In this document: in pieces, positions 659-59,427 of the stretch
Layout of the letters: each line of letters starts with the position of its first letter
Numbering within the stretch: position 1 is the stretch's first letter
NCBI GenBank assembly: GCA_963729045.1
Contig: CAVSMN010000021.1
Span: forward strand, 4,664 to 68,663
Length of the DNA: 64,000 nt
Reading direction: 5' to 3'
From: an uncultured Nitrososphaeraceae archaeon
Lineage (GTDB): Archaea; Thermoproteota; Nitrososphaeria; Nitrososphaerales; Nitrososphaeraceae
Program-made: the position numbers and the translations under genes
The notes under the pieces: generated by a model
Database searches by the model: none
Told to the model about the DNA's origin: nothing
What the model saw: the letters and a program-made list of their open reading frames with translations, nothing else

Positions 659-714
659 CCCATGTGTATATCCTCATGATTTCCACCGAATCAGATACCT
701 ATTTATAGTAACGA
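659..714 (+). repeat. Dispersed modular element, A-linker-E
   Basis: ATGTGTATATCCTCATGATTT-CCACCGAATCA-GATACCTATTTATAGTAACGA. Confidence 0.9.
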
Positions 715-1371
715 TATATTAGAATTTGTTATATCTCAAAAAACTAGACCATTTTTCTGATCATATTATTATTCAAGCATTGATTAATCCGTATGCTTAG
801 GGAAAGGGCCTGCATAATACGAAAATTTTACATTTTCCCTTAAATCCAAAGATGTAAAAAGACAACATCCTTCATTGCTAAACAGAGGTTTGAGTTTTCT
901 AAATCTTGAAGAAGCATCAAATAAAAATGACTCGACTATTAAAGCTCGCCAAAAAGGGGAAAAGCCTGTTAGAAAGAACAATGCGTTACATAAAGGGCAA
1001 AACTGAATTTTAAGATGATTATTTTCCATGCAGACTAGAAAATTGTAAACTAGAGCATATACGGGATTGGTCGAATCTATTCACTGAATACCACAACTAG
1101 GATTTAGGAACAGTTAATTGAACATAGCAATAGACTTATTATTAATCTCTATTTCTTCTGCAATTGCATTAATGCTATGTGTAGATTTCGAATGTAAATT
1201 AGAATTCTTTGACATGTTTGCTGACAAGAAATAGATTTGTTAAAACAAAGAAAATCTATTCGGTCTGGATAAAATAATTAAGTAGATAGAGTAAGTAAAA
1301 AGTAATCCCTTTCTAATGAGTCCAATTAACTCAATTATTCATATTATTTGACCTGTGAATAGGACATATAT

Positions 1372-1473
1372 ATGAAAGTGAAACATCTATTATTATCGAT
1401 CATTTTAGCCACGTTTATCGCCGGATTTGGTCTATTTGAATCCTCAAACACTAGTGCGCAGAACCCCCTTTAA
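1372..1473 (+). pseudogene. Signal-peptide remnant of a secreted protein
   Basis: MKVKHLLLSIILATFIAGFGLFESSNTSAQNPL* followed by stop-riddled sequence. Confidence 0.4.
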
Positions 1474-1805
1474 TGGGCTTCGGAAATAACTATCCATTGA
1501 ATCATATAATTAAACTAGAGTTTGAATCTAGGACAAGCATACATTGACTGTTTTGCAGTTGTGTTCCTGTTAATCATTACTATAGCCTAGACTTTAACCA
1601 AATGATCCCAAAGAGGATAAGGACGGTGTTGGATGAGTTGAGGAGAGAATTAAGTTAGTCTAAACAGTAGTAACGATAGAAATAGTCAAGGTTTGTTGTT
1701 TAGCGAAATGTTTAACTGATTACAGAACATAATTCAGACTATATAACGGATATTAAACGACTTTTTCAGGTCACAAATAAATTAACTATGATAATTAAAG
1801 GTAAA

Positions 1806-2286
1806 ATGTTCCATAATTAATTATTGACCATACTTACATTGTATTTTCCTGTCTCTATCCAATCTAATCTAGTATCTGCCCAAAGTGACGGTTATACTCA
1901 TGGGTGCTCAGATGGAAAAATATAATCCGAATCAAAGATACCTAAATCAGCCAGGAAATGGATCTGAAAATCAAAATGAAGAATTCAGGAATGAGTATAT
2001 CAAAGGCTTTAATGATTGTTATGGCAGCTACAATACCTGTTATGATCAGGGCGTCCTTGACGGAATGACTGTTAACGAAAACATGAGGACAGGTCAATTT
2101 GAGAGCCAAGTTCAAAGATACGGTGGTTGCTACGACCAGGGCTTTCATTTTGGATGTGCATTGGTAAAGGGTATGCAGAGGCTTGTTTTGATTATCTGTA
2201 TGAGCCGCCCCAAAACATCGGGCAACCATGAATTAATTCATGGCAGATCCATAGTGATCAGTCCTATTTACAAGATTAAAATATGA
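1806..2286 (+). pseudogene. Degraded secreted protein with GY/GC-type repeats
   Basis: Broken signal peptide ...VSAQSDGYTHGCSDGK is out of frame with ORF 1885-2286 (YIKGFNDC, CYDQG x2). Confidence 0.45.
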
Positions 2287-3262
2287 AGAAAATGGTCTAA
2301 CCATTTCTTTATACTTTCATAAACCTTCGGTTACAAATAAATCGATAATATCTATTGTTAATTATTACTGCTAAGATGAGTGGTTTTATATTGCCTAGTT
2401 TTGTTTGTTTGGCTTTCTTTGGTTTAATTTCATCAATCAAAATAACCATGCTTTAATCTCTCAAGATCAGTAGATTCTATTGTTATTGTTTCAAATACTC
2501 ATTGTGGAGAGTTTGTCATTCATAATTCCCAAACAAGTAAATCCTAAAATTGACAAGCAGTCAGAAATTCCGAAATGTCCCTCAAAATGGTCAATAACTG
2601 AACTGATCCAGTATTGTGGACCTGATACTAACGAAATAATTACACAGAGAGTAACACCGGTGCTAGATTAGTTGAGGAAAGAGTTAAACTTACAAAACCT
2701 CCAAATAATAGAGGTTAGTTCCTTTAGACAGCTCTGATTAAATTTTACTCAGCAAGTTCCATCCGTACTGAAAAATGTGTTTTTGGCGGTCTAAATTGGA
2801 CTGAATATTCCTCCGTGTCTGGTTAAAACATTGGTTGCCTACTGCTACACTGCAATCCGGACCAGTTTGATCGCCATATGCTGCGACACCACCTCCGGTG
2901 GCATCACTACCTTCTCCTATAACAAATCCGCAATAGCCACAATTACTATTATCAGTACCAGACTCTCCATTAGCAACACCACCTTTCTTAACTCTACATA
3001 CTATCTTTATATTCTATTGGGGTGTTAGCTACATCCATGAAGGAACACGGAAAGGTAACAACAACAAATGTAATTATTCTAACAACAGTAACAATAGTAT
3101 TCATTGGTGCGTTTATTTGTGCTATCACTATCTTACGACAAAAGACTAATGCGTAGTATGTACCAAATCCAGCTTATTCTGGTGGTGGAGAAGGACCACC
3201 GATAAAACCGTTCCATCCACCTAGTGATGCAGCTCATAGCAAACAGCAAGAAGGGTTTAATA

Positions 3263-3295
3263 CCACCGAACCCACATAGCATAACAGTTCTTTTA
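3263..3295 (+). repeat. Dispersed modular element, linker plus degenerate D
   Basis: CCACCGAACCC-ACATAGCATAACAGTTCTT. Confidence 0.5.
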
Positions 3296-3383
3296 AATGG
3301 GTTCTACTAACAGATGGATAAAAAATGATAAAATTTATACTAGTTTTATCTCATATTGGAAACTTCGATCTAACTTCTTAGAA

Positions 3384-6178: not shown

Positions 6179-6220
6179 TGTATTACATACCGCCGAATCC
6201 GCTATCTATTTATAGTAACT
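6179..6220 (+). repeat. Dispersed modular element, partial B-linker-E
   Basis: TGTATTACATA-CCGCCGAATCC-GCTATCTATTTATAGTAAC. Confidence 0.8.
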
Positions 6221-6324
6221 ACTGGTAAGACAATGAAGTATCATTCTATGTTAAATTGCTTGGATTTTGATAAATAAAGGGATGAGTGCTTTACCCAGTC
6301 CTGCGGTTTTTTTGTCTTATCCTG

Positions 6325-8040: not shown

Positions 8041-8082
8041 TTGCAAATTCAAGTCGAATTTGTTTCACATATCACCGAACCA
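8041..8082 (+). repeat. Dispersed modular element, B-linker
   Basis: TTGCAAATTCAAGTCGAATTTGTTTCACATA-TCACCGAACCA. Confidence 0.85.
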
Positions 8083-9085: not shown

Positions 9086-9114
9086 AGTCAAACTTGTTTC
9101 ACATACCACCGAGG
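9086..9114 (+). repeat. Dispersed modular element, B-linker
   Basis: AGTCAAACTTGTTTCACATA-CCACCGAGG. Confidence 0.8.
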
Positions 9115-9169
9115 ACAAATATCTAAGATAGTAATTCTTTTAATAATTTGTTGTAATTGTTATAAAGTT

Positions 9170-9295: not shown

Positions 9296-9309
9296 GATAA
9301 CCTTCAAGT

Positions 9310-9707: not shown

Positions 9708-9729
9708 CAATAAATCACTTTGTAATAGT

Positions 9730-11068: not shown

Positions 11069-11125
11069 AACTAGTGTGAAATTTCATACTCGTCCCACCG
11101 AATTAGATACCTACTTATAGTAACG
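11069..11125 (+). repeat. Dispersed modular element, C-linker-E
   Basis: GTGTGAAATTTCATACTCGTC-CCACCGAATTA-GATACCTACTTATAGTAACG. Confidence 0.9.
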
Positions 11126-11134
11126 TTTTAATAT

Positions 11135-13358: not shown

Positions 13359-13444
13359 ATTCGGTCAAATTTGTTTCACATACTGGCGAACCCGCAAACC
13401 ATTCGGAACTTAATTCCACCGAACCAGCTACCTATTAGTAACGA
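13359..13444 (+). repeat. Dispersed modular element, full B-linker-D-linker-E
   Basis: TCGGTCAAATTTGTTTCACATA-CTGGCGAACCC-GCAAACCATTCGGAACTTAATT-CCACCGAACCA-GCTACCTATTAGTAACGA. Confidence 0.9.
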
Positions 13445-13510
13445 AGCGAATACAGTTAGAGGTAAAGTAATTCTAAACTGTCTGTATTATTAAAAAAGTT
13501 TATAAAAAAA

Positions 13511-14766: not shown

Positions 14767-14824
14767 GACTAGTATGAAATTTCATACCCGTACTACCAAA
14801 CTCATAATATACGAAACTTAATCC
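14767..14824 (+). repeat. Dispersed modular element, C-linker-D
   Basis: GTATGAAATTTCATACCCGTA-CTACCAAACTC-ATAATATACGAAACTTAATC; contains a perfect 16-bp palindrome. Confidence 0.8.
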
Positions 14825-14894
14825 TTGGGAGCCTATTTTCGTCAATATTTGGTATTAAAAACCGTTTGATACCCATGTTTATATAGTATGTTGA

Positions 14895-15521
14895 GTGCTA
14901 TATAATATGTCAAAGAAAACAGGAACTAAAGAAAACTATTCAAATAATACCAATGAACAAATTAATAATAACAACAATAACAATAATGATTTCCAAGAAT
15001 CCGTTAACCAATCACTAGATGAAACCAAAGATAATATCAAAAAATCAATAGATGAATCAAGACACCAAATTCCACGAATTAATAATATTGTAAATAGTTA
15101 TCAAGAAGAATCACTACAAACTGCAAAAGAGATTTCAGAGGATTATATCGATTCTCAAAAACAAGTTGTTAATTCACTCCAATCAGTTTGGAGACCATAC
15201 AATGAAATCTTTAATGGGTTCGTTACCAACTTCTTTTCCCCTGATGCAGCAGCTAAAGCATATACTAGATTTGTCAGTAACGTTGCAGATAATACAGTAT
15301 CGGCTGTTAGACTTTCAAACAACGTAATTTTCTCAACCTTAGAATCATGGAAACCAGCTTTAAAACAAGCAAAAGATATATCTAGACACATATCAAACAC
15401 GGGAGTAAATACAGCAAGAACATTTGAACAAAATTCAAGCCAATTAGTAGAAGATGTTAAAGAGGTAGTCAATTCAAACACAAACTCTGCTACTAGAACT
15501 AAAGACTCCACACATCATTAA
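14895..15521 (+). CDS. Hypothetical helical protein (possibly phasin-like)
   Basis: Poly-Asn N-terminus, amphipathic helical segments (VNQSLDETKDNIKKSIDE). Confidence 0.65.
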   Translation: MLYNMSKKTGTKENYSNNTNEQINNNNNNNNDFQESVNQSLDETKDNIKKSIDESRHQIPRINNIVNSYQEESLQTAKEISEDYIDSQKQVVNSLQSVWRPYNEIFNGFVTNFFSPDAAAKAYTRFVSNVADNTVSAVRLSNNVIFSTLESWKPALKQAKDISRHISNTGVNTARTFEQNSSQLVEDVKEVVNSNTNSATRTKDSTHH

Positions 15522-15693
15522 CAAAAAAATAGACAAATTCAAAACTGCAAATAAAATCAACCCATCAGTTTTCCTTTGGAGTTAAACAAACTCAAGGAAT
15601 TAAGTTACCAATACTATAGCTAAATTTACTTTTCTTACCATTGTCTTTTTCATCCATAAAGAAAAAATGATTTAAATTATAACTCAATAAGAC

Positions 15694-15763
15694 AACTCAA
15701 GTGAATTTTCTCATGATTTCTCCAGAATCCCTATACTATATGGAACTTAATCCCGCCGACCTA
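15694..15763 (+). repeat. Dispersed modular element, A-linker-D-linker
   Basis: AAGTGAATTTTCTCATGATTT-CTCCAGAATCC-CTATACTATATGGAACTTAATC-CCGCCGACCTA. Confidence 0.85.
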
Positions 15764-16524: not shown

Positions 16525-17088
16525 TTTAGCTCATTGATAACAAGCGTGTAGAAAAAACTTTTATTGTAGATTTTTCTATTCAAAATTTCTACTTGATAAT
16601 CAATACCGTAATAATTAAAAATTACTATCCATAACTATTCTTACTAACTAACTTTACCTTCATAAACGAAAATATCTCCATGAATTTACTAACAGGGCAG
16701 TTTATGATTTAGAACATTTAGATAATTAGAGATTCAAAATATTGTTCGTAATAACCATAATTACTGGATACATTAGATCTCTTGCGTAATTAGTCCAAAC
16801 AGCTTTTATGAAAAGATGTGTGAATATATCGCAATTTCTAAATTATTTTAAAAATACAAGAAGAAAAATCAAACAATATTTGTATTGCAAATGAGGTTGA
16901 ATATGTTGTTGACCGTTTAATTACTTATAAATGGAATCGTATATAGATATATTAAGGAAAATTAATTAAGGGTTTGTGTCTCAAGTGACACAGGTTAATT
17001 TTTCTCAGAAATACAAAATTTTCCTATCGATAATAAAATTCAATTCAACCAATTGATGAATACGTATGTGATAATATTGTAACTGTCG

Positions 17089-18004: not shown

Positions 18005-18051
18005 ATGATTTCCACCGAACCCTTATACCATACCATACACTTGATTGTAAC
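18005..18051 (+). repeat. Dispersed modular element, partial A-linker-D
   Basis: ATGATTT-CCACCGAACCC-TTATACCATACC. Confidence 0.85.
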
Positions 18052-18081: not shown

Positions 18082-18149
18082 GAGTTGCAAATTCGGTCAA
18101 ATTTGTTTCACATTCCACCGAACCAGTTACCACTATATGGTATAGTAAC
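18082..18149 (+). repeat. Dispersed modular element, B-linker-E
   Basis: GAGTTGCAAATTCGGTCAAATTTGTTTCACATT-CCACCGAACCA-GTTACCACTATATGGTATAGTAAC. Confidence 0.9.
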
Positions 18150-18166
18150 AATTTAGTAACACTCGC

Positions 18167-19081: not shown

Positions 19082-19136
19082 AACTCATGTGGATATCCTC
19101 ATGAATTCCACCTAACTAGCTCTATATCTTAGTAAC
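19082..19136 (+). repeat. Dispersed modular element, A-linker-E
   Basis: ATGTGGATATCCTCATGAATT-CCACCTAACTA-GCTCTATATCTTAGTAAC. Confidence 0.9.
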
Positions 19137-19366
19137 CATAAATACAATGATAGTCTAACCCGGATTGAAAATCATGAATTATTCAATCGAATTATTTCGA
19201 TAGCGTTAATTGGTTCCTTATGGTTTATTTTTATTCTTTTTTGTTTCTTGGATATTGAAATGTACCTAGTAGGTATGATACTTTCCAAATGTTCTTAATA
19301 TAATATACCATCGTGTTGATGGGGATCATGAATATATAGTCGCATGGTTAATGAAGAAACATAAAA

Positions 19367-20875
19367 TTGAGAAAAATAATAATACCAATAACATTTCTTG
19401 CAATTTTGATGCTAGGTTTTAATGAATTAGATGTGAGTGCTCAAGAAAGCAATTTTACCATAGTCTTAAATCCTGGTGCAACTAACAGCGACAGCCAGAA
19501 TCCTATGTCACCTGTCAATGTTACTATTCCTGCAGGGACCAATGTTACTTGGATAAATAAAGACTCTTCTCCTCACATGTTAGTCTCTGGAACCCCAGAT
19601 GAAGGTCCAAATAACATATTCTATGGTGATTTCTTTGGTACAGATGAGAATTACACTGTAACATTTGATGAACCAGGCTTGTATTCATACTATGATCCAA
19701 TTTGGAGTCATATCAGAGGAGAAGTAACTGTTGAGAATCCCGTATTTTCTGCCGATCTGGGATCGAGTACGAATTACTCAAGTATGAATGGTATTGATGA
19801 TAACCCCGTGCTAAATTCTAATACACCTGACGTAATTGATTCCAATACAAATAATTTAAACACATCAGAGAATGATTCGTTGTCAATCCCATCATCGTCT
19901 TTTTTATCGTCAGTTCCTAGCTTTACCACTAACGATACAAGTGACCAAACTTCTCCATTATCATCACTAGGTTCGGATCAGGCCCTTACAAACATATTCA
20001 ATAAGGTCGGTCCACTGCTCGGCCTTTTGATGAATGGCAATAGCAGTTCCTCTTCTTCACCCTTCTCCTCTCTGTCCCAATCAAACGAATCTTTTGGTGT
20101 CGGTACCCTGGATAATCAATCCTCATTTCCGTCATCCACCACTCAATCGTCAAGTCCCGATCAGGCCCTTACAAACATATTCAATAAGGTCGGTCCACTG
20201 CTCGGCCTTTTGATGAATGGCAATAGCAGTTCCTCTTCTTCACCCTTCTCCTCTCTGTCCCAATCAAACGAATCTTTTGGTGTCGGTACCCTGGATAATC
20301 AATCCTCATTTCCGTCATCCACCACTCAATCGTCAAGTCCCGATCAGGCCCTTACAAACATATTCAATAAGGTCGGTCCACTGCTCGGCCTTTTGATGAA
20401 TGGCAATAGCAGTTCCTCTTCTTCACCCTTCTCCTCTCTGTCCCAATCAAACGAATCTTTTGGTGTCGGTACCCTGGATAATCAATCCTCATTTCCGTCA
20501 TCCACCACTCAATCGTCAAGTCCCGATCAGGCCCTTACAAACATATTCAATAAGGTCGGTCCACTGCTCGGCCTTTTGATGAATGGCAATAGCAGTTCCT
20601 CTTCTTCACCCTTCTCCTCTCTGTCCCAATCAAACGAATCTTTTGGTGTCGGTACCCTGGATAATCAATCCTCATTTCCGTCATCCACCACTCAATCGTC
20701 AAGTCCCGATCAGGCCCTTACAAACATATTCAATAAGGTCGGTCCACTGCTCGGCCTTTTGATGAATGGCAATAGCAGTTCCTCTTCTTCACCCTTCTCC
20801 TCTCTGTCCCAATCAAATGAGATGTTTGGAGAAAACTTGATGGATACTGCTAATATTAGTAACGGTGAACCTTAA
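19367..20875 (+). CDS. Secreted cupredoxin-fold protein with Ser-rich 61-aa tandem repeats
   Basis: Signal peptide; VTWINKDSSPH...TFDEPGLYSYYDPIWSHIRGEVTV; repeats follow. Confidence 0.8.
   Translation: MRKIIIPITFLAILMLGFNELDVSAQESNFTIVLNPGATNSDSQNPMSPVNVTIPAGTNVTWINKDSSPHMLVSGTPDEGPNNIFYGDFFGTDENYTVTFDEPGLYSYYDPIWSHIRGEVTVENPVFSADLGSSTNYSSMNGIDDNPVLNSNTPDVIDSNTNNLNTSENDSLSIPSSSFLSSVPSFTTNDTSDQTSPLSSLGSDQALTNIFNKVGPLLGLLMNGNSSSSSSPFSSLSQSNESFGVGTLDNQSSFPSSTTQSSSPDQALTNIFNKVGPLLGLLMNGNSSSSSSPFSSLSQSNESFGVGTLDNQSSFPSSTTQSSSPDQALTNIFNKVGPLLGLLMNGNSSSSSSPFSSLSQSNESFGVGTLDNQSSFPSSTTQSSSPDQALTNIFNKVGPLLGLLMNGNSSSSSSPFSSLSQSNESFGVGTLDNQSSFPSSTTQSSSPDQALTNIFNKVGPLLGLLMNGNSSSSSSPFSSLSQSNEMFGENLMDTANISNGEP
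19976..20817 (+). repeat. 183-bp tandem repeat, ~4.6 copies, apparently identical
   Basis: GATCAGGCCCTTACAAACATATTC begins at 19976, 20159, 20342, 20525, 20708. Confidence 0.97.
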
Positions 20876-22680: not shown

Positions 22681-24638
22681 TTGGGAAAGCGTTTTCTATT
22701 TCTCAGAAGAAAAGAAATGACCATTGTTTCAATAATACTATTAATTGCTGGATCTTATTCTTTATTATTCTTCCAACAAAATATTGCAGAACAGAATATT
22801 AGAGACAGTCTTTTTCTAGCTCATAGGAATAATCAGATAGAGGTTACAAAGGGTCTTTCAGAGCATGTTAGTGCCGATCTTCGATTGGTAGCATCGATTC
22901 TCCAAGGATTATCCGATTCTATTTATTTGCAACAGGGAGAATTGTATGGCGATAGGGTTGGAAACCTAATAGAAGAACGATTTAATGAAATAAACAACAT
23001 TAGTAAAATCGATGGGCTTTTTATCGCAGACAAAAATAATATAATAACGCATAATAAGGTATCAGAAGGACAAAGGAGTTTTGTCAATATAGATATTTCA
23101 CTTAGAGATTACGTAAATGAAACAAAGAGGACTTTAAATCCCGTATTTTCAAATGGCTTCAAAGGAATTGATGGCACTTATAAAATAGCATTAACTTCTC
23201 CTATAATAAATAGAGATACTCAAGAATACCTCGGAATGGTCGGAGTGGAAATACCATCTGTTGATTTCTTTGCACGATACGGAAATGTATATAACATCAG
23301 ATTCACAATTTTTGGTAGCGTATGATCGAAATTCAAATTATATATCCACTCCTAGAACCAACTTTTTAGGGACAAGCTTATTTAGTGATGAAGTTCAGCG
23401 CTTTTTCAATTTTAACTCATATCCAAAACAAATATTATCAAGGTGTTTTTGATGGTCGACTATTTGGAGGATATGCCATATATGATTTTGGAACTGGAGA
23501 AAGACTTAATACTGGATATCCTGTTTCTGTTGATGGAAACTCCAAATATTTCGTTTTCCTAATTACGCCTACAGCATCGGTTTACTCTGATATTGATGAG
23601 ACTTTATCTGCAGAAAGATCAAAGTTTTATTTGTTGATTGCGGGGATTACTACTACAATTGTAATTTTGGTTTTATTTTTAGTAAAACTGAATAGTATAT
23701 TGAATGAACAAGTTAAGAGAAGAACAAAAGATTTAGAGGAATCAAACAAACGCCTTAAAATTGCTAATGAAAAACTTAATATTCATGACAAAATGCAAAA
23801 GGACTTTATCAATATAGCAGCCCATGAACTAAGAACCCCTACTCAGGCGATATCAGGAAATTTGGAATTGATCAAAATGACTTATGTTCCTTCTATTTTC
23901 CAAACGTCCCCGCCAGATAAAATAGGCATTAAAGGTGAATTAGAGAGACTGGTCAAAGATGAAGATAGGCTACATGATTTTACATATACACTTGTATCAA
24001 CACATAGAAATGCACAAAGACTAGAGAAATTGGTGAATGATATTTTAGATACTGCACGAATTGAGGGTAATCGTCTTGAGTTGCATAAAGAATCCTTTAA
24101 TTTAAACGAAAAAATACAGAATGTAATTAAAGATATCCACAATAAGACTAATCTTAGTTCACATTATGGTAATTCCTATACTTCTTTTAACATAGTTTTT
24201 GAACCGCAAGAAGATCCCATCATGGTATCTGCAGATAAAATAAGGATTTTCGAAGTTCTTTCAAACGTGATAAATAATGCGATAAAATTTTCAAATGGTG
24301 AACCCATCACTATTTCAGCTAAAAATTTTCAAAAAAATGAAATTGGAGCGATGATAAGTAGTAATCATAATAATGAATTAGTCGACACCGAAAATACAAG
24401 GGAAAATGAAGATGAAAAGGTGGTGGTGGTATCAGTTAGGGATAGAGGAACAGGCATAGACTCTGATATTCTACCAAGGTTATTTACAAAGTTTGCTACA
24501 AAATCAGATCAAGGTACAGGACTAGGACTGTATATAGCAAAAAGTATTATTGACGCTCATGGTGGGATTATATGGGCTGAAAATAACAAAGATGGAAAAG
24601 GGGCTACGTTTTATTTCACATTGCCATTAACTAAATGA
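22681..24638 (+). CDS. Cache-sensor histidine kinase (frameshifts near 23298 and 23417)
   Basis: Three consecutive ORFs give TM-Cache-TM-HisKA (AAHELRTP)-HATPase (NAIKF, DRGTGI, GTGLGL). Confidence 0.9.
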
Positions 24639-24721: not shown

Positions 24722-24778
24722 AACCCATTTGGATATCCTCATGATTTCCACCGAACACGCTACCTATTTTAGTAACGA
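24722..24778 (+). repeat. Dispersed modular element, A-linker-E
   Basis: ATTTGGATATCCTCATGATTT-CCACCGAACAC-GCTACCTATTTTAGTAACGA. Confidence 0.92.
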
Positions 24779-24930
24779 TATAGGAAGGTATAAGATATAG
24801 GGCTAATACTTAATTTTCATCTTTTTAAAACAAATCTTTTTTGTGTTTTCATCTTCACAATTGAGATGGGAAAAACGACCATTTGACTATTTTGAGAGTA
24901 AAGGTCAGATAAACGATCTTTTGGATTCTG

Positions 24931-25430: not shown

Positions 25431-25468
25431 CGTCCAAACCCTTATACCATGAGGAACTTAGTCCCCCA
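25431..25468 (+). repeat. Dispersed modular element, linker-D
   Basis: CGTCCAAACCC-TTATACCATGAGGAACTTAGTC-CCCC. Confidence 0.75.
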
Positions 25469-25602
25469 AGAAGCCTATGAATTTTTCTTTACATATTAGA
25501 AAGAAAATTGGGTTCATCGTTTGACTAATCACTGGATATCAATTAAAGGATAAATAGAAGATGGTAATTGTTTTAATAATTTGTTATACATATTGTTAAG
25601 TT

Positions 25603-32503: not shown

Positions 32504-32593
32504 GACTCGTGTGAAATTTAATACTCGTCCAATCGAACCATTATACCATACAGAACTTAATCATTATAAATCAACTCTTCATTTTGGTAACGA
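32504..32593 (+). repeat. Dispersed modular element, C-linker-D-(degenerate linker)-E
   Basis: GTGTGAAATTTAATACTCGTC-CAATCGAACCA-TTATACCATACAGAACTTAATC-N11-ACTCTTCATTTTGGTAACGA. Confidence 0.88.
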
Positions 32594-33428: not shown

Positions 33429-33483
33429 GCAAATTTGGGGTTGTTCCCACCGAAACAGCTTACTAACATGGTCTCATGGTAAG
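33429..33483 (+). repeat. Dispersed modular element, degenerate B-linker-E
   Basis: GCAAATTTGGGGTTGTTC-CCACCGAAACA-GCTTAC...GGTAAG. Confidence 0.6.
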
Positions 33484-34021: not shown

Positions 34022-34070
34022 AAACCGATGTTATATCCTAATGATTTTAACCGAACCCGCCTATTATACG
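34022..34070 (+). repeat. Dispersed modular element, A-linker
   Basis: ATGTTATATCCTAATGATTT-TAACCGAACCC-GCCTATTA. Confidence 0.75.
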
Positions 34071-34120
34071 GGTTATTCTTTAATATATTCGTCATAAAAA
34101 TATGGATCTTTATGATTTTC

Positions 34121-40575: not shown

Positions 40576-41437
40576 ATGAAGTCACCAAAATTGGCAATGA
40601 GGTTCGAGTTTCCCAAAGGCGTAGCCGTGGATGCTTCAGGTTATGTGTACGTAGCTGACGATGCGAATCATCGTATTCAGAAATCTGATAGCAATGGAAA
40701 TTTTAGAAAAGAATGGGGAGAAGAAGGCTCTGACAAAGGAGAGTTCAAGTTTCCCAAAGGCGTAGCCGTGGATACATTCAGGCTATTTGTACGTAGCTGA
40801 TGATGGCAACTGCCGTGTCCAAAAGTTTGACAGCAATGGCAACTTCATTGGTGAATGGGGACGCAAAGGCTCTGACAAAGGAGAGTTCAAGTTTCCCAAA
40901 GGCGTAGCCGTGGATACATCTGGCTATGTGTATGTAACTGACGACGAAAATCATCGTGTTCAAAAGTTTGACAGCAATGGCAACTTCATTACAACGTGGG
41001 GTTCAGAGGGTTCGAGAGATGGTCAACTTAAGCATCCTTATGGGATTCGAGTTGACTCCAATGGCTATGTGTACGTAGCTGACGATGCGAATCATCGTGT
41101 TCAAAAGTTTGACAGCAATGGCAACTTCATTGGTGAATGGGGACGCAAAGGCTCTGACAAAGGAGAGTTCAAGTTTCCCAAAGGCGTAGCCGTGGATACT
41201 TCAGGCTATTTGTACGTAGCTGATGATGGCAACTGCCGTGTTCAAAAGTTTGACAGCAATGGCAACTTCATTGGTGAATGGGGACGCAAAGGCTCTGACA
41301 AAGGAGAGTTCAAGTTTCCCAAAGGCGTAGCCGTGGATACATCTGGCTATGTGTATGTAACTGACGACGAAAATCATCGTGTTCAAAAGTTTGACAGCAA
41401 TGGCAACTTCATTGGTGAATGGGGAAGACGCGATTGA
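40576..41437 (+). CDS. NHL-repeat beta-propeller protein (about six 47-aa repeats), frameshift at ~40776
   Basis: FKFPKGVAVDTSGYVYVADDxNHRVQKFDSNGNFI repeats at 141-bp period. Confidence 0.9.
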
Positions 41438-41791: not shown

Positions 41792-41828
41792 AAATTGAGT
41801 CAAATTTGTTTCACATATCCGAACCCGC
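41792..41828 (+). repeat. Dispersed modular element, B-linker
   Basis: AAATTGAGTCAAATTTGTTTCACATA-TCCGAACCC-GC. Confidence 0.85.
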
Positions 41829-43053: not shown

Positions 43054-44165
43054 TACTCAAATACTGGTTGGTCAGATGAGTTCTTTGAATAGATATCCAT
43101 GAATATCTATTATATATCCATGAATAAAAAGATGCGGTAGTATTGATTTTGATATGACACCATTTCCTTCTCATATCGGGATTTTTGCGGGGAGGAATGT
43201 AAAATATTAATTGAGTATCATACCTTGTTGATTGTTCTTGAAACATTGGAGAGTCGGAGTGCATGTTTCCGTTATCTAATTATATTGCCACGTTACTACC
43301 AAAGTTTAATTGAATCAGGATGTTCATGTTGTTACAAAACCTGATTTTCCTTCGGTTCGACAACAAAGAAAACATTTCTAAATAAATATAATCAAACTGT
43401 TTTTGTAAGTCAGGAGGATAATAGATATTCTAGGTGATACTGTAAAACCCACACTCTTAAAACTATTTGAGTCAACTCTATTGAAATTAGAATAGATGGT
43501 GCTTTATGACTATAATATCAAATACGAAAAAAATGATATTAGATCTTATAGTGGAAAAGAAACAAAAGGTGTTAACTAAGTCAATTTTAGCGAAAATCAC
43601 AATAGGAGGTGATTCTAATCTTATCGAGAGAGAAAAATGAAGACAATCATGAAATTGAACCATTAATGATTTCCGTCCTGCCTATCATATCAGCTCAAAC
43701 AAAGTGGAATTGTTTTAGAGATTGAGGACCTTTTTCAATTACTCTTATCGAAGGAAACGAATTTCATGACAAGTGTTATTTCCACTCGAAAAAGACAAAA
43801 AAATCCACAATGGGTTTTAAACCTATTCTTGATTTTATTTAATTCCAGAATCAGGATATAGTCCAAAACTAATGGTGGCACCTAAAGAAAGCATCAAAAA
43901 AAACAATCAAGTAATTTTGTGAAGCAACGATTATCCTCATTTGACGGATAGAAATTTCGAAGAGACTACATAGAGGGAAAAGTTGCCTAGAGTTTCATGC
44001 TCCTACAATTGAAGAAGTGAGGAGGCCTATTCGTTGCTATCCCGATAGGCGTATTCGTTCAATCGTGATTGTAATGACATGGAATCTATTTAATATGGGT
44101 CATATATCTCCAATTAGGACCTAATATCATTTTGATCTTTATATACGAAGTTATCATAACATAAT

Positions 44166-45546
44166 ATGCAAGTTGCTGTAAGATTTAATGGAGTACTTCC
44201 AAATGTCTCTGAGTTAGGAGAAGAAGAAATCTCTGAAAGAACCTTCAAAGTAATGAAGCAGAATATCGCATCAAACACGTCTTGTTCTATTTTTTCAAAA
44301 AATGAACATAATGAAAATACATCTCATGTACTTGTGGATGTTGGCCGTGGAGTAGTCCAAAGCATTGAGCGAGGATTCTCTAGTCTTGAATTCAAATCAT
44401 CATCTTTACCAGACCCCCATCTTCCTAACGCAATTTTGATAACTCATTCACATGATGATCATATTGCAGATCTTCCAGCCTTAATAGAAAAAATTACTAA
44501 TAGTTCCAAGAATTTACAGATTTTCTGTACCTGAAGAATGCTATACACAGATTGTTCAAAAGTTTCCCCAACTTTCATCTATTATTTCATCCAATCCCTC
44601 TTCTGTAATAAACAATAATGCTGTTTCAGTTAATGTGATACGTCCAAACAATATCTTTAACATTGATAATCTTTCGATAACTCCTATTTTGGCAAACCAT
44701 GGTAGCGATACTCCTACTGGTTCAGTCATTTATGTAGTAGATACAGATAATATAAAAATGGTATTTGGATGGGATTTTCTTTCTCTAGTAGACGTAGACG
44801 AAAAGATACTCTGGAATCCTGATCTTGTTGTACTGGGGGCTCATAGCTATAATCCGCATCCAGAAACAGGAATGATCTCTGTTTCAGATGCTTACTCACT
44901 AATAAGACAATGGAATGCTAAAGATAGCTATATAGTGCATTATAGTGGGTTAGCAGATCTTGAGGATGCTAAAAATCAATGGTTTAGAGGACCTACAAAA
45001 CCTATGACATCGGAGGAACTACAAAAGGTAATAGATTCTAGCGGTCCTATAACAGGTGCAGAAGATCATTATTCTTTTAAAATAATAGTAGCAAAGGAAG
45101 GAATGATATGGCATTCAAAAACACAATTTGAAGATTCCATGGAACAAAATGTTAGCAATGAAAAAATAGGAAATGAACTATTAATTGAAGGGCTTGAAAA
45201 ATATGTATTGAAATTTGAGCATAATTCTATAGACAATAATTTAAAAATTATGGTTGAAGATCGAATTAATAGACGCGATTTATCCTTTGTTAATCCACAC
45301 AAAGATAGTAAATACGATAATATAGTTTATGCAGAGGCAGAGAAAGGAGGAATGATGACTCGTGGTCCAGAATTGAGAATGGAGGTAATGGATACAATTC
45401 CACAATCCTCGCAGTCACAAGAAGATTCTGCTGTTGTTAAAATACTTGCTTACAAAGGTAAAAAGGATGTTTATAGAAACGATATACGGATTAATAATTC
45501 AGACGCAGTAAGGTTGAAAAGATATCTTCAAGAAAATTTAACATAA
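44166..45546 (+). CDS. Metallo-beta-lactamase-fold hydrolase, frameshift near 44531
   Basis: LVDVG, THSHDDH, ANHG, IVHYSG across two ORFs. Confidence 0.85.
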
Positions 45547-45892: not shown

Positions 45893-45923
45893 GGACAAAT
45901 TTGTTTCATATACCGCCTAACCC
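45893..45923 (+). repeat. Dispersed modular element, B-linker
   Basis: GGACAAATTTGTTTCATATA-CCGCCTAACCC. Confidence 0.8.
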
Positions 45924-46186: not shown

Positions 46187-47687
46187 ATGAGATGCGAGAA
46201 CCCTGTCATGAATCAGATACTCGATGCTTATAAACCGATGTGGTCGCTAAAACATGCCATTTCTCTAATGGGTTGGGACTTTGAAACTTATATGCCTAGA
46301 GAAGGGGCAGAAGAGAGGGGAGTGGCCGATTCTCAGCTTCACATGATGCATAAAGATCTTCTGCTAAAGAAAGATTTTAGTGGTCTTGTTGAGTCAGCGA
46401 AGAAACTGAGGAGCCTTAGTGACTTTGAGAAGGGAATTGTACCAGGTACTTGATAGGGAAATAACTAAGCAGGTCAAGATACCCAAAGAATTGACTGAAG
46501 CAGAATCTTTGGTAAGGATAAGGGGAAATATGGCATGGAGGGAAGCAAGGGCAAAATCTGCTTTTAAGATGTATGAACCGCACTTGAAGAAGATGATAGA
46601 AATAAAGAAGCAAATCGCTGCGAAGATAGGTTATGAAAAACATCCATATAATGCACTCTTAGATACATTCGAAGAGCAGCTTACCGTAAATGACTTGGAT
46701 AAAATATTCGATGCATTAACCCCTCGTATTCAAACGCTTCTGAAAAAACTCGTAGATTCAAATAGCCCGTTCTGCAAAACGAACAAACTTGCAAAATCAA
46801 AATATGATATCAATAAAGTGAATGAACTCAATCACGATATTTTGACTCTTCTGCAATACGACATGAAACGTTTCAGAATGGATATATCCACTCATCCTTT
46901 CACCGAGACTATGGGGCTAAACGATATCAGAATAACTACTCGGTATGAAGGGATTGATTTCAAAAAGTCGATATTTAGTACCATTCATGAAGCTGGTCAC
47001 GCATTGTACAATCTACAATGCGATCAATCATTGTCTTTTTCTCCCATTGAAGGAGGATCTTCACTTGGACTCCATGAATCTCAGTCAAGGTTTTGGGAGA
47101 ACATTGTGTGCAGAAGTATGCCTTTTGTTCAATTGATAAGTCCATTGATTAGAAAACAAATAGATTTCACAAACCAAACTACAGATGACGAATTATACCT
47201 TTATTTCAATAATGTCAAAGCTGACTATATACGAGTTGACGCCGATGAAGTTACTTACAATTTACATATAGCAATTAGGTATGAGATAGAGAAAAAAATA
47301 TTTGGAGATGAGCTCAATGTATCTGAGATTCCTGAATTCTGGAACGATAGAATGGAGCAGCTTCTTGGTGTGAGGCCAACTAAGGATTCAGAGGGAGTGC
47401 TTCAGGATACCCATTGGAGCAGCGGCCTTTTTGGGTATTTCCCAACTTACACTCTGGGAAATTTGGTTTCAGCAATAATTGCTTCAAAGATGCGAAAAGA
47501 TCTAGAAGACTCCGAGGAAGACATTAAGAGGGGTAATTTTGATCCTATCAGAAAATGGTTAAGATTAAAAATACATCAGTATGGATCTGCTTTTGCTCCC
47601 AAAGTACTTCTTGATAAGAACCTAAATGAAGGATATAACCCAGATTACTTTGTTAACTACCTTGAGACTAAATATCTTGGCTCCTGA
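46187..47687 (+). CDS. Carboxypeptidase M32 (Taq-like), frameshift near 46442
   Basis: HPF, DIRITTR, HEAGHALY, HESQSRFWEN, IRVDADE, GYFPTYTLG. Confidence 0.95.
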
Positions 47688-48577: not shown

Positions 48578-48635
48578 GAGTTGCAAATTCTGTCAAATTT
48601 GTTTCATCTACTATCTTACCCGCATATTATGCGGG
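48578..48635 (+). repeat. Dispersed modular element, B-degenerate linker-hairpin
   Basis: GAGTTGCAAATTCTGTCAAATTTGTTTCATCTA-CTATCTTACCC, then inverted repeat CCCGCATA-T-TATGCGGG. Confidence 0.75.
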
Positions 48636-48868
48636 AATATATGTCAGATATTCTTTATTATATTCGTCATGATGTAAGGAACTTTATTATTTTCATATTA
48701 ACTGGAGATTAAATATATCTCTGGAAAATTAGAGATCACAAAAAGAAATATTTAATTGTTGGACAATCTCTCATGTTTAAGCTTTATTCTAAAATCTTAT
48801 CCAATCTAGTCAAATTACAAATCAGGCCAATAACTGTAAAATATTAGAACTCTGAATATTGAGTATCT

Positions 48869-49267
48869 GTGAATATTATGGATAGTCAAGGAAACGGAAA
48901 AAACAATATTAACAACAATAACACCAAAGATGAGCAAAACATGAACAACCCTAACCAGTTTAGATTGATTACGGATTGGTGGCAACAGAATTCGCCTATG
49001 GCTTGGGGTGAAATGTATAATGAATATATTGAATACATTACGTCCATGACTGAAATATACAAAGAGTACATTAAGCGCTCAGAAAAAATGACCGAATTGT
49101 ATAAAGAATTGGCAATAAATACCGAAAAAATGACTGACCTGTATAAAGAGTCTGTTAAGAGTACCGAAAGAATGAGTAATCAATGGCTAAATAAATTTCC
49201 TAATCCTCTATTTTCAAAAGAACAAAGACCAGAAAAACGGGTTAGTAAACTAAAAGATAAAAAATAA
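48869..49267 (+). CDS. Hypothetical helical protein with 14-aa internal repeats
   Basis: SMTEIYKE / KMTELYKE / KMTDLYKE. Confidence 0.6.
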   Translation: MNIMDSQGNGKNNINNNNTKDEQNMNNPNQFRLITDWWQQNSPMAWGEMYNEYIEYITSMTEIYKEYIKRSEKMTELYKELAINTEKMTDLYKESVKSTERMSNQWLNKFPNPLFSKEQRPEKRVSKLKDKK

Positions 49268-49303: not shown

Positions 49304-49359
49304 ACTCATGTGGATATCCTTATGATTTCCACCGATCCAGATCTCTATGTTAGTATTGA
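49304..49359 (+). repeat. Dispersed modular element, A-linker-E
   Basis: ATGTGGATATCCTTATGATTT-CCACCGATCCA-GATCTCTATGTTAGTATTGA. Confidence 0.88.
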
Positions 49360-49649
49360 TCAGGATTTTATTGCAAATACTACAAATTCAAGGTGGGATA
49401 GTAGCGAACTAAGACATAAAATTTTTCTTGTCCTTTCTCATCATTCAGGTAAATATAACCACTTCTTGTTGAAGATGGGGGCCATATGGTCAAGTTCTCC
49501 GATTATCAACGAAAAATTTGGTGGTCGGTCTCATGGTCAAATGTTCAAATGTCGAATTAATGTCAATTACTAACGTCCAAGGCAAATTTTCAAAAGCCCC
49601 GATTCAAACATGTCTTCTACCCTATCCGATATCGTTACTTCGCCTGTAT

Positions 49650-50176: not shown

Positions 50177-50541
50177 ATCAATCTTTTTGATATAGTAGAT
50201 TAATAAGTTTGCGTCGTATTTCAAGGAGGAATGCTGAAAATAATATTGATTATAAATTGGTAAATATTCCTTACTCTGTTGTTTGATGATTCTTTTGACA
50301 AAATCATGTTCAATATTCTAGTAACTAACTAAATCATTCAGATTATAACAATTGAGAATCTATTTAACAACAAGAAATGGACTACAGAAATTTCCAGGCA
50401 ATCAAACTTTAATCGCGGCTTATTTTCATATCTATAGATTTTTTCTTATATTACAAAAACATGTCATATTTGTTACACTTACCCATGAAGCCATCTAGGG
50501 TAACTAATCTCAGGTATCTTGAGTAGGCTATCTGCCCAATG

Positions 50542-52308: not shown

Positions 52309-52340
52309 CCACCGATTGCGCTACCTTATATAAGTAACGA
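52309..52340 (+). repeat. Dispersed modular element, linker-E
   Basis: CCACCGATTGC-GCTACCTTATATAAGTAACGA. Confidence 0.8.
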
Positions 52341-53110: not shown

Positions 53111-53165
53111 ACTCATAGAGATATCCATATGATTTCCACCGAACACGATACCTATCCATGGTAGC
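53111..53165 (+). repeat. Dispersed modular element, A-linker-E
   Basis: ATAGAGATATCCATATGATTT-CCACCGAACAC-GATACCTATCCATGGTAGC. Confidence 0.88.
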
Positions 53166-53261
53166 TATTGGACATTCTTTTGTTGATAATGCAAACGAGA
53201 GTATTGATACGCTGAATTATGTTATGAATCTACTTATGACTATTCTTATAATTACTTAATA

Positions 53262-55916: not shown

Positions 55917-55997
55917 AACCCATGTGGATCTCCTAATGATTTCCACCGAACCCTTATACCATAGGAACTTAATCCCACTGAACCCGCTAGCTGTTTT
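55917..55997 (+). repeat. Dispersed modular element, A-linker-D-linker-(E)
   Basis: ATGTGGATCTCCTAATGATTT-CCACCGAACCC-TTATACCATAGGAACTTAATC-CCACTGAACCC-GCTAGCTGTTTT. Confidence 0.92.
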
Positions 55998-56020
55998 ACT
56001 ATTATTGAGTGATAGAAATG

Positions 56021-56051
56021 GGTCAAATTTGTTTTACATACCACCGAGCCT
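56021..56051 (+). repeat. Dispersed modular element, B-linker
   Basis: GGTCAAATTTGTTTTACATA-CCACCGAGCCT. Confidence 0.88.
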
Positions 56052-56363
56052 GTTATGTTATTGTTCCTTTTTCAGAACTTTATCCCAATAACCAGAGAAA
56101 GGTAGATTGATAGAAATAGAATACAGTGATCAATATTCAATGATCCTGTTTGCAATGCGGACATCCAAAACTTGAGAAAAATGCGTAGGAGGATTAAATA
56201 TGTTCATTGACATTGTGGATAATCTTCCTGGGAAACAGGTACAAAAATGCGTCAGGAGGTATGAGATGAGTCTATACTAATTATCAAGTTATATATAACG
56301 ATAATACATAGAATTGGGATTTATTACCAATATATTTAATAGGATCCATTACGATACTAAAGT

Positions 56364-56833: not shown

Positions 56834-56890
56834 AACTCATGTGGAAATTCTCATGATATATACCGAACGTGCCACATGTTTTGGTAACGA
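56834..56890 (+). repeat. Dispersed modular element, A-linker-E
   Basis: ATGTGGAAATTCTCATGATAT-ATACCGAACGT-GCCACATGTTTTGGTAACGA. Confidence 0.85.
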
Positions 56891-56929
56891 TGTAATATAA
56901 TAGTCACTGGCACGACGGATTTAGAGATT

Positions 56930-57258: not shown

Positions 57259-57421
57259 GGATAGGTAGAATCTTAATCATCTCCATCTTTACCCTATTCC
57301 CCTACTTCCTCCGCTGTCCCCTTCCCCAGTAGTCGTATAAGGAGATACTATGGATTCACTGTTATAATATATGGTAACCATATTTTATCAGTTCAATCCA
57401 TTCTTTATATTCTCATAGGCA

Positions 57422-58046
57422 TTAATGCCCATGTTCAGGTGGATTATTACCATAAATGTTTAATGTCCCTGTACCATTATTATATTGATAAAACGATGCA
57501 ACCGGTCCAGGATAAACCTTATTGTTTACAGTTATTGGTGTATATTTGCTAATTCCTTGATATAATTGACCATTATTTTCCTTTGTAATGTTACTCACAC
57601 TAAAAACTCGACTTATTTCTTCAATGTTTTGTGAATTATTTTTTTGTAAATCAGCCAATTCTAAATGAGAATGATGGAAAAATGCTAATATTTGAAATAA
57701 TCACTTTGTTATTTTCTGAGTTGAACAATGGATGTTGGTCTATCCTTTGATTTCCACTTTCATTCACTAGAACCGTGACACTTCCGTTTGTAGGGTTGTA
57801 TCGCTCTCCTGTAGAACTATACCCTCCAGGATCCTTGATTGTTTGCATGGTAATAGATAGGTAAGGCTTATTTACCGTATTTGCATCAGGAATTTGAGTT
57901 GCATTTTCAACCGAAGATATTGTCGTGTTTCGTTGTTGCGAATATGATTTGTGAATAATAGGAATGCCACCATAAATCACACAAACAGTTGTTAGAAATA
58001 TTGATACAACACATATACATAACCAACTATTAAAAGTTCTATCCAT
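57422..58046 (-). CDS. Secreted hypothetical protein, split by a frameshift near 57655
   Basis: Signal peptide in 57651-58046; overlapping downstream ORF 57422-57658 has similar Asn-rich composition. Confidence 0.55.
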
Positions 58047-58232
58047 TGTTAATATGATGATTACCTAGTAAAATACTTTAAAGGTCGTCTATTCATACGA
58101 TGATTTCAAATACTTTAGAAATCATAGTCGATTATGTTATTAAAAATGGCTTTCGAGTCAAATATATGTGCGATGCAGCTGAAGTCTATTTTTCGATTAT
58201 AAGTTTGTACATATCCCTTACCTTATTGAATT

Positions 58233-58272
58233 GACTCATCTTAATATCCTCATGATTTCCACATGACCTGCT
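58233..58272 (+). repeat. Dispersed modular element, degenerate A-linker
   Basis: ATCTTAATATCCTCATGATTT-CCACATGACCT-GCT. Confidence 0.7.
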
Positions 58273-58368
58273 TAGAAATACACACTAATATAACAGACCT
58301 AGGACTAGCAAGTCAAAATCGCAATGTTAACTTGTCAAGTAAATCTATAGTAGTTTTCGTGTGCTGGA

Positions 58369-59235
58369 TCATTGTTTTTCACCCACTATACATATAGCTT
58401 CATTATCTAAAACTATGGAATCTGTATTATTTTTTACATATTTTGTTGCTGCTTCTGTAACTGCTTTCCATATCTGTTCTTTGCGATCTAAAGTTTGATC
58501 GGCTAACATTGCAAGAACCGGAGCGGCTATATCTTTAGTGAAATTTGTGTATTCTTCAGCAGAATCAAACTCAAAGGTTACATTAATCCGTTCAATCTCG
58601 ATATCTTTGAATCCACACCTGATAAAAGAATTCTTGAGAATTGTTTCATCAGCTAGACTATATGGTCCCGGTGTTCTACGAGAAGATGGTGATGGAATAT
58701 TAAGTTCCTTTCTTACAGTATCCATAGCCAACGCAAGTTGAGGAACTTTCTCTGATGTTGCCCAGACACTAGCCGCAAAACGCCCACCGGTTACCAATGA
58801 TTTATAGATATTAGATAATCCTGAGTCGAGCTCGTCTAAAAACATCAATCCCAATCTACATAATGCCGCGTCAAAATTTGATTCGGGTAAGTCAATCGTT
58901 GCTGCATCACCTTCTTTAAAGTCAATTATTCCTTCCAAGTGCTCTGCGATGGCCCTCTTTTTTGCTATTGACAACATTTGTAATGATATGTCTGTAGCCA
59001 ACACATGACCACTGGTACCCACGCATTTAGCTACAGCAATTGCGGGTTCTCCTATCCCAGTCGCTATATCAAGAACTTTTGAAGCTGGTTTTATTTTTGC
59101 CATATCTATTAATTTGTCACTCATTTTATAAGCACCATTTTCAAATGTCTTATACCACTTTTCCCACCCTGCAGCTACACTTTCCCAATCTTGACGTTGA
59201 TCTCGTCTCAATTGATCCACATCTGAATTAGGCAT
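58369..59235 (-). CDS. Class I SAM-dependent methyltransferase (UbiE/COQ5-like)
   Basis: VLDIATGIGEPA, ATDIS, FDAALCRLGLMF, LVTGGRF. Confidence 0.92.
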   Translation of the reverse strand: MPNSDVDQLRRDQRQDWESVAAGWEKWYKTFENGAYKMSDKLIDMAKIKPASKVLDIATGIGEPAIAVAKCVGTSGHVLATDISLQMLSIAKKRAIAEHLEGIIDFKEGDAATIDLPESNFDAALCRLGLMFLDELDSGLSNIYKSLVTGGRFAASVWATSEKVPQLALAMDTVRKELNIPSPSSRRTPGPYSLADETILKNSFIRCGFKDIEIERINVTFEFDSAEEYTNFTKDIAAPVLAMLADQTLDRKEQIWKAVTEAATKYVKNNTDSIVLDNEAICIVGEKQ

Positions 59236-59396
59236 ATTATCTTAACTCTATCGATCACATTATTATTTTTTAATTGTATTGACTTTAAGGATCAATTTGA
59301 CTTGGCAAAATTAATAAAACCTAAGCTGATCCGTCTTTGCATAAATTCTAATCGATGATCTAAAGACTACCGAATTACTCTATCTATTATTTAGAA

Positions 59397-59427
59397 GTGT
59401 GGATATCTCATTATTTTCACCGAACAC
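59397..59427 (+). repeat. Dispersed modular element, A-linker
   Basis: GTGTGGATATCTCATTATTT-TCACCGAACAC. Confidence 0.7.

What the first reader, a model, noticed from the sequence alone, without database searches (positions are those of the whole stretch)
659..59427. Dispersed modular palindrome-linker element with a combinatorial grammar (~28 copies)
Seen in the sequence: about 28 copies, roughly one per 2.3 kb, none inside a credible gene. All share an 11-nt linker, consensus CCACCGAACCC. The linker is preceded by one of three alternative arms: A = ATGTGGATATCCTCATGATTT, B = (GAGTTGCAAATTC)GGTCAAATTTGTTTCACATA, C = GTGTGAAATTTCATACTCGTC. It is followed either by a terminal arm E = GCTACCTATTT(A)TAGTAACGA or by an internal arm D = TTATACCATACGGAACTTAATC plus a second linker, giving a 32-33 nt period. 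Observed combinations include A-E (659, 19082, 24722, 49304, 53111, 56834), C-E (11069), B-E (18082), B-D-E (13359), A-D (15694, 18005, 55917) and C-D (14767, 32504). Inference: arms exchanged around a constant linker suggest recombination or assembly at the linker. Candidate identities are a REP/BIME-like or MITE family moved by a trans-acting nuclease, a cassette-junction site, or a multicopy structured RNA. I do not recognise it as a named element.
Basis: partly seen in the sequence, partly recalled or inferred. Interest (0 to 1): 0.92.

Follow-up and report, generated by a model that had tools for sequence, protein, structure and literature searches.

The report
tRNA-Lys-anchored gene cassette junction array
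The repeats are copies of the tail end of a lysine tRNA gene that separate small blocks of accessory genes in a soil archaeon, and related genomes carry the same blocks in other orders joined at these copies, so they are likely recombination sites of a gene-collecting array that resembles a bacterial integron built from different parts.

Summary
In detail: about 29 co-oriented, intergenic arm-linker-arm sites. The 11-nt linker is the 3' end of this genome's tRNA-Lys(CTT). In related genomes such arrays run up to about 130 kb downstream of that tRNA. Each site is the end arm of one gene block, the tRNA-derived core, and the start arm of the next. Blocks recur with different neighbours (same neighbour in 4 of 142 comparisons), and homology switches at the core. 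Tyrosine integrases follow the tRNA in 12 of 23 genomes, with their own start arms. The commonest start arms (E, D) almost never lead into an integrase (2 of 142). A parallel array at tRNA-Lys(TTT) reuses the arm families around another core. Best reading: hybrid att junctions of integrase-free cassettes, likely moved by integrases of visiting elements; excision was not shown. REP, MITE and RNA readings are not supported. This is an unusually dense variant of known tandem accretion at tRNA genes; I found no paper on it for this lineage. The scan has found it before on other DNA, including other pieces of this genome. Window 1-547 is probably an assembly chimera, so the tRNA link comes from relatives.

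The parts
659..714 (+). Junction A-core-E (core 683-693)
   Evidence: the same downstream block follows a C arm in G004 C7
815..964 (+). 5' stub of a tyrosine integrase behind the E arm
   Evidence: G000:C21:5478-5627, E 2e-4
3263..3273 (+). Perfect core without a classified arm (borderline)
   Evidence: homology to G041 starts here
6190..6221 (+). Core-E junction, left arm unclassified
8052..8082 (+). B-core junction
9086..9116 (+). B-core junction
11069..11126 (+). C-core-E junction
13359..13445 (+). B-core-D-core-E (33-bp double junction)
14767..14823 (+). C-degenerate core-D junction
14793..15719 (+). Cassette with one 208-aa ORF (14895-15521); its family has 9 copies in 5 genomes, with differing neighbours
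   Evidence: RNA contigs of 4 of 4 laid runs cover the ORF
15694..15763 (+). A-core-D-core junction
18005..18034 (+). Truncated A-core-truncated D (borderline)
18082..18150 (+). B-core-E junction
19082..19140 (+). A-core-E junction
24722..24780 (+). A-core-E junction; opens a 0.68-kb cassette (to 25430) that also occurs twice in G020
25431..25474 (+). Degenerate core-D-core junction
32504..32562 (+). C-core-D junction
33447..33480 (+). Core with weak E-like arm (borderline)
   Evidence: homology to G020 ends here
34022..34075 (+). Degenerate A-core-G junction
41798..41828 (+). B-core junction (core shortened)
43741..44079 (+). Decayed tyrosine-integrase fragment with 4 stops
   Evidence: G000:C21:48404-48742, E 1e-9
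45893..45923 (+). B-core junction
48591..48640 (+). B-degenerate core-G-like junction
49304..49360 (+). A-core-degenerate E junction
50462..50492 (+). Degenerate B-core junction
52309..52340 (+). Core-E junction
53111..53168 (+). A-core-E junction
55917..55995 (+). A-core-D-core junction (32-bp period)
56021..56051 (+). B-core junction followed by an integrase stub
56140..56235 (+). 5' stub (32 codons) of a G011-type tyrosine integrase
   Evidence: 62% identity, E 1e-6
56834..56892 (+). A-degenerate core-E junction
58233..58292 (+). A-core-H junction; H is the arm that follows tRNA-Lys(CTT) in this genome's contig C14
58259..59416 (+). Methyltransferase cassette (gene 58369-59235, minus strand); a related cassette (66% nt) with the same H start and A end lies directly behind the tRNA in G022
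59391..59427 (+). Degenerate A-core junction
1..547 (.). Not part of the array: about 100% identical to a genome of another genus (G097), probably an assembly mis-join

Best explanation
The sites are junctions between small gene cassettes, each made of the end arm of one cassette, a core identical to the 3' end of tRNA-Lys(CTT), and the start arm of the next, and they are likely hybrid att sites at which tRNA-targeting tyrosine integrases, likely supplied in trans by visiting elements, would cut cassettes out and insert them again. SHOWN: the core is the tRNA end; in relatives the arrays lie downstream of that tRNA in its orientation; homology between genomes switches at the core; the same integrase-free units occur at different positions, including directly behind the tRNA; integrase genes begin behind their own start arms at this core. 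INFERRED: strand exchange within about CCACCGA(A); excision as a circle that carries end arm-core-start arm; insertion at the tRNA and at internal junctions; the palindromic arms as binding sites on double-stranded DNA. The 'combinatorial grammar' follows directly, because every junction pairs arms of two unrelated cassettes.
For: Core = tRNA-Lys(CTT) end at G000:C14:114771. Sites are co-oriented downstream of the tRNA in G007, G015, G020, G012, G041, G024, G046 and G004. Among 308 sites, 153 pairs share only the upstream flank, 97 only the downstream flank and 11 both (pairs not independent). Of 260 site-to-site segments, 60 fall into 21 multi-member families (one is an artefact upstream of the tRNA); neighbours agree in 4 of 142 comparisons. 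Core positions 1-8 are 82-91% conserved, and positions 10-11 go with the right arm (p 3e-4, 9e-6). An integrase start lies within 500 bp of G/H/N/K arms in 16 of 23 cases, of E in 2 of 95 and of D in 0 of 47. Behind the tRNA: integrase in 12 of 23 genomes, none in 11, of which 2 contigs are too short to judge. One integrase clade keeps the catalytic R, K, H-x-x-R, H and Y (motif recalled). In G011 the tRNA has a variant core, and 5 of 5 exact 10-mers in the fetched 80 kb (the tRNA included) carry it, against 8 of 97 elsewhere. A second array at tRNA-Lys(TTT) has the same architecture and related D, B and E arms.
Against: No circle, excision or enzyme activity was shown. No integrase could be assigned to the E or D arms. 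G000's own tRNA-Lys(CTT) integrase is broken, and the fetched arrays of the single-contig genomes G041 and G012 hold no intact integrase of the two modelled groups. I see no clear inverted repeat flanking the core, as a lambda-type site would have (seen in the sequence). Only 20 of 90 internal E junctions would restore the tRNA acceptor stem, against 5 of 5 at the tRNA, and most array-2 sites differ from their tRNA at core position 7; insertion at the tRNA alone does not explain this. Start and end arms show no fixed pairing. The window is not joined to the tRNA in this assembly. The excess of alignment ends at sites (368 of 1892 against 2.7% expected) is partly circular, because the arms are themselves homologous.
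Confidence: 0.72

Rival explanations
1. Passive scars only: every unit entered as a large element with its own integrase and then shrank by deletion (CIME-type decay). The small units do not move on their own.
For: Integrase 5' stubs lie behind many internal G/H/N/K arms and behind two E arms, three of them in the window. Core mismatches rise weakly with distance from the tRNA (rho 0.18, p 0.018, n 174). CIMEs and accretion are described in PMC5704250 (passages) and PMC3146451 (passages).
Against: The same 0.4-2.7-kb integrase-free units with intact ends recur in different genomes, and twice within one array, with different neighbours. Integrase-free units sit directly behind the tRNA in 9 genomes that could be judged. 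E and D arms lead into an integrase in only 2 of 142 cases.
Confidence: 0.16
2. attC-like system: the palindromic arms fold as single-stranded hairpins that are read by structure by an unidentified resident recombinase.
For: A, C, F and, in part, B are palindromes centred 13 bp before the core, with different letters but kept symmetry between classes. No fixed integrase goes with the arrays.
Against: No compensation within a class (almost all |z| < 2). Predicted DNA folds are weak (-1 to -9 kcal/mol) and differ between classes. The core is conserved in sequence and follows the tRNA allele. No IntI-specific model is among the hits of three integrases.
Confidence: 0.06
3. The sites are promoters, terminators or small RNAs of the neighbouring genes rather than recombination sites.
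For: All are intergenic; palindromes could bind regulators; D plus core mimics a tRNA T-arm.
Against: One strand throughout, whereas the genes face both ways (20 plus, 15 minus). The sites are confined to tRNA-anchored arrays and are breakpoints of homology. No Rfam match.
Confidence: 0.03
4. REP/BIME-like or MITE family spread by a transposase.
For: Short palindromes, many copies, 32-33-bp doublets.
Against: No inverted pairs or dispersal: 29 forward against 1 reverse hit in C21:1-130000. No Y1 transposase or reverse transcriptase was found in G000, 87% complete. The core is a tRNA end.
Confidence: 0.02

Closest known systems
Tandem accretion at tRNA/tmRNA att sites and cis-mobilizable elements (CIMEs; PMC5704250, passages); tandem ssrA islands of Dehalococcoides (PMC3146451, passages)
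   Same: Direct repeats of the target gene's 3' end divide up to about 100 kb downstream; some units lack an integration module.
   Different: Here there are 30-50 junctions per array, the median spacing is 2.2 kb, and most units hold one or two genes without integrase. Units are duplicated within a strain, whereas that paper reports no duplicate islands. The enzymes are tyrosine, not serine, recombinases.
Tycheposons and cryptic elements of Prochlorococcus (bioRxiv 10.1101/2020.12.28.424599, passages)
   Same: Transient integrase-bearing elements at the tRNA-proximal end, with partial tRNAs and integrase fragments further into the island.
   Different: There, most island material lacks clear boundaries. 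Here nearly the whole island is cut into bounded units with conserved arms and a core of only about 8 bp. I did not test for replication or packaging modules.
Cryptic integrated elements of Thaumarchaeota (PMC6563490; abstract, section 6 and passages)
   Same: tRNA 3' targets, short att sites (as short as 8 bp), same phylum.
   Different: That survey lists single elements or pairs; its main text has 0 mentions of Nitrosocosmicus and 0 of tRNA-Lys. I did not see its supplements.
Integrons, including archaeal ones (bioRxiv 10.1101/2022.02.06.479319, passages)
   Same: Long array of small accessory-gene cassettes separated by co-oriented sites and shuffled between genomes.
   Different: No IntI, no attC fold, genes in both orientations, entry site in a tRNA gene, no resident integrase.

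Membership tests
tRNA-targeted tandem islands / CIMEs | Direct repeats of the target gene's 3' end downstream of it, in the same orientation | tested here: met
   Met in relatives; in G000 the link is cut by a probable mis-join
tRNA-targeted tandem islands / CIMEs | Site-specific integrase next to the att site in some units | tested here: met
   12 of 23 genomes
tRNA-targeted tandem islands / CIMEs | Units without integrase that keep both att ends | tested here: met
tRNA-targeted tandem islands / CIMEs | Integrase-free units derive from autonomous elements by deletion and move only in cis | tested here: inconclusive
   Stubs support descent for G/H/N/K arms; E and D units recur with changing neighbours
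tRNA-targeted tandem islands / CIMEs | Excision as a circle | not testable with these tools
   Only assembled contigs were available; joints at cores had short sides
Integron | IntI with its specific insertion, resident at the array head | tested here: not met
   No IntI-specific family hit; head integrases vary or are absent. The insertion itself was not examined separately.
Integron | attC hairpin recognised by structure | tested here: not met
   No covariation within a class, weak folds
Integron | Cassette genes mostly co-oriented | tested here: not met
   20 plus, 15 minus among 35 window ORFs
Integron | Small cassettes shuffled at co-oriented sites | tested here: met
Tycheposon | Integrase plus replication or packaging hallmark genes in the element | not tested
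   The cargo of the integrase-bearing elements was not annotated
REP/BIME (RAYT) or IS200/605-derived MITE | HUH Y1 transposase in the genome | tested here: not met
   PF01797: 0 matches in G000, 87% complete
REP/BIME (RAYT) or IS200/605-derived MITE | Dispersed copies in both orientations | tested here: not met
Known IS end | Match in ISfinder | not testable with these tools
   No such library on hand
Rfam RNA family | Match at gathering score | tested here: not met

The most novel reading that the evidence does not exclude
An integron analogue made from tRNA-integrase parts. A dedicated class of integrase-free cassettes, with portable arms shared by two tRNA-Lys arrays, inserts not only at the tRNA but at any internal junction; the D arm supplies a new T-arm-like target 33 bp inside the array. 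Cassettes travel between cells as cargo of unrelated integrative elements, as the two CTT-type junctions beside the tRNA-Ser integrase of G015 suggest.
Probability: 0.35. Interest if true: 0.8.

Novelty: new variant of a known kind. Interest (0 to 1): 0.55.

Why it matters
These arrays hold 50-130 kb of accessory genes per locus in a widespread genus of soil ammonia oxidisers: sensor kinases, solute-binding proteins, a P450, a cupredoxin, methyltransferases. If the cassettes move, this would explain how the accessory genome of these archaea is assembled, and it would give an 8-bp-core integration system for a group that, to my knowledge, lacks genetic tools. The arm catalogue and the mapped crossover interval make the mechanism directly testable. 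The score is moderate because tandem accretion at tRNA genes is an established mechanism and mobility was not shown.

Tried and rejected
Rfam: 0 matches. No tRNA in the window. Pfam PF00589 found nothing in G000, although custom profiles found integrase pieces, so that blank was a sensitivity problem. My first pattern for the second array was out of register and found 0 of 5; it was corrected. A likeness of the reverse linker to archaeal ORB origin boxes (recalled) was dropped, because it does not extend into arms B, C or D. DNA contigs of 4 runs gave joints at or beside cores (13392>24761, 11102>19083, 18119>24804, 18031>24748), but with sides of 21-30 letters where shown, which the shared arms can explain; not counted as evidence of circles. 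RNA contigs of 4 runs cover cargo genes, and nearly none of the listed pieces cover a junction, but contigs show neither ends nor absence. The idea that a foreign rRNA operon was captured as cargo was rejected in favour of a mis-join: about 100% identity to G097 over 5.2 kb, ending inside a gene. The Atlas search of the 208-aa cassette protein gave only unnamed archaeal clusters; phasin-like clusters at 0.89 or lower are a lead only. A fixed pairing of start and end arms was not found. Literature searches found no description of these arrays in this lineage; subscription papers are not covered. PMC13245735 (passages) mentions only islands flanked by integrases.
Full report
Observation. The copies are real. 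Without four second cores this is about 29 loci, none inside my 35 gene spans. Similar sites continue in contig C21 beyond the window to about C21:100-109 kb, increasingly weak.

The linker is a tRNA end. ARAGORN finds tRNA-Lys(CTT) at G000:C14:114694-114783. Its 3' T-stem strand and acceptor strand read CCACCGAACCC-GC. The sequence behind that tRNA (arm H) recurs behind the junction at window 58259. The A-linker pattern occurs in 18 of 24 genomes of the genus and in 0 of 16 genomes of other families. A D-arm pattern occurs in 18 of 21 genomes of the genus and in 5 of 129 of other genera of the family (two genomes flagged unpublished are among the non-matching ones, and no other claim rests on them). 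The genus is probably Nitrosocosmicus; that label comes from an earlier scan note and from recall, not from a call.

Arrays behind the tRNA. The tRNA end was found in 28 of 33 other genomes of the genus. In the eight that I could follow for 30 kb or more with dense sites, the sites run downstream of the tRNA in its orientation, for example 44 forward and 0 reverse in 140 kb of G041. G048 and G011 have only 2-4 sites, and the short stretches of G018 and G043 and the 40 kb of G047 have none, so density varies. In G000 the window is not joined to the tRNA. C21:2-5210, which includes window 1-547, is about 100% identical to G097, a genome of another genus, and its 16S is 96% identical to the other three copies in G000. 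I read this as an assembly mis-join. DNA beyond the array in C21 matches the distal flank of the G015 array.

Shuffling at the core. Among 308 sites, 153 pairs share only the upstream flank, 97 only the downstream flank and 11 both. In the downstream-only pairs identity jumps at core position 1. Clustering 260 site-to-site segments gives 21 multi-member families (60 segments; one family is an artefact upstream of the tRNA), and neighbours agree in 4 of 142 comparisons. The window's 14793-15719 unit has 9 copies in 5 genomes, mostly ending in arm A. A 0.74-kb unit lies directly behind the tRNA in G048 and inside the arrays of G041 and G024. Core positions 1-8 and a T at -2 are conserved whatever the arms; positions 10-11 go with the right arm. 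That fits an overlap of about 7 bp, as described for tyrosine recombinases (PMC8371274, passages). In G011 the array follows the tRNA's variant allele. These counts come from related genomes and are not independent events.

Integrases and two classes of start arm. Behind the tRNA lie tyrosine recombinases of at least two groups. They are weak Pfam and NCBIfam matches below the cut-offs, and one group keeps the full catalytic set. An integrase start follows arms G, H, N and K in 16 of 23 cases, E in 2 of 95, D in 0 of 47 and M in 1 of 8. Of 24 genomes scored, I set aside G047, whose tRNA end differs. Of the other 23, 12 have an integrase or its stub first and 11 do not; two of the latter contigs end within 140 bp of the tRNA. 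No integrase is fixed across five genomes searched, and G000's head copy is broken. So integrase-bearing elements visit the site, while most units are integrase-free cassettes of about 1-5 kb (median spacing 2.2 kb) carrying accessory genes.

A second array. D-like arms elsewhere in G000 led to an array behind tRNA-Lys(TTT) in G041, G015, G012 and G007. It has its own core but related D, B and E arms. There D is purely an end arm, and in both arrays D plus core mimics the T-arm of the target tRNA. The arms therefore look like portable binding sites and the core like the address (inference).

What is not explained. Most internal E junctions (70 of 90), and most array-2 sites, would not restore the tRNA's acceptor stem. 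This suggests insertion at internal junctions, or a directional change after insertion. No enzyme is assigned to E and D, and how new cassettes get their ends is unknown. The palindromes show no compensation within a class, which argues against an attC-like fold. Public contigs could not show circles.

Comparison and verdict. The system works like tandem accretion at tRNA att sites with integrase-free units (PMC5704250, PMC3146451 and the tycheposon preprint; passages read). It resembles an integron in outcome but fails the IntI, attC and co-orientation tests. Nine literature searches found no description for this lineage. The scan itself holds 117 notes with these words in at least 87 genomes, including other pieces of this genome; these are unchecked AI notes and are not counted as support. 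Verdict: a real, new variant of a known kind; interest 0.55.

Noticed in passing
window 1-547 (G000:C21:2-5210): An rRNA operon, hflX and a winged-helix gene about 100% identical to G097 (another genus) are joined mid-gene to the array. Probably an assembly chimera; the 16S is 96% identical to the genome's other copies.
   Followed up: yes
L105-L098 (G041:C1:339074 downward); L115, L091-L097 (G015:C1:514231 upward); G000 C18, C17, C1, C13: Second cassette array at tRNA-Lys(TTT), with its own core and shared arm families.
   Followed up: partly
L111 (G015:C1:1796026-1800219); L114 (G013:C218): tRNA-Lys(CTT)-type junctions lie in reverse orientation beside the integrase of a tRNA-Ser element, and beside another integrase in G013. 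Cassettes may ride on other elements.
   Followed up: partly
G000 C15, C13, C9: Strand-skewed matches to other tRNA ends: Thr(TGT) 0 vs 12 on C15, Gly(CCC) 7 vs 1 on C13, Leu 9 vs 1 on C9. Possibly further arrays.
   Followed up: no
window 14895-15521 and 48869-49267: The most widespread cassette encodes an unnamed 208-aa protein with a weak phasin-like lead, covered by RNA contigs of four soil runs. The second ORF looks compositionally similar; not tested.
   Followed up: partly
window 19976-20820, 40602-41425, 60100-61305: Long internal tandem repeats in cargo genes: S/Q-rich repeats in a cupredoxin, NHL repeats, and a Q/N/G-rich repeat protein.
   Followed up: no
window 16750-16950: A high-depth repeated segment in metagenome contigs. 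A further repeat near window 956-1128 matches many places in several genomes. Possibly other small elements.
   Followed up: no
G169 (genus g28): 20 D-arm matches in a genome of another genus: a real array or contamination.
   Followed up: no
window 22681-24638, 44166-45546, 46187-47687: Genes split by single frameshifts. Contigs of two runs lack a base at 23419 and of one at 23302, so some splits are probably assembly errors.
   Followed up: partly
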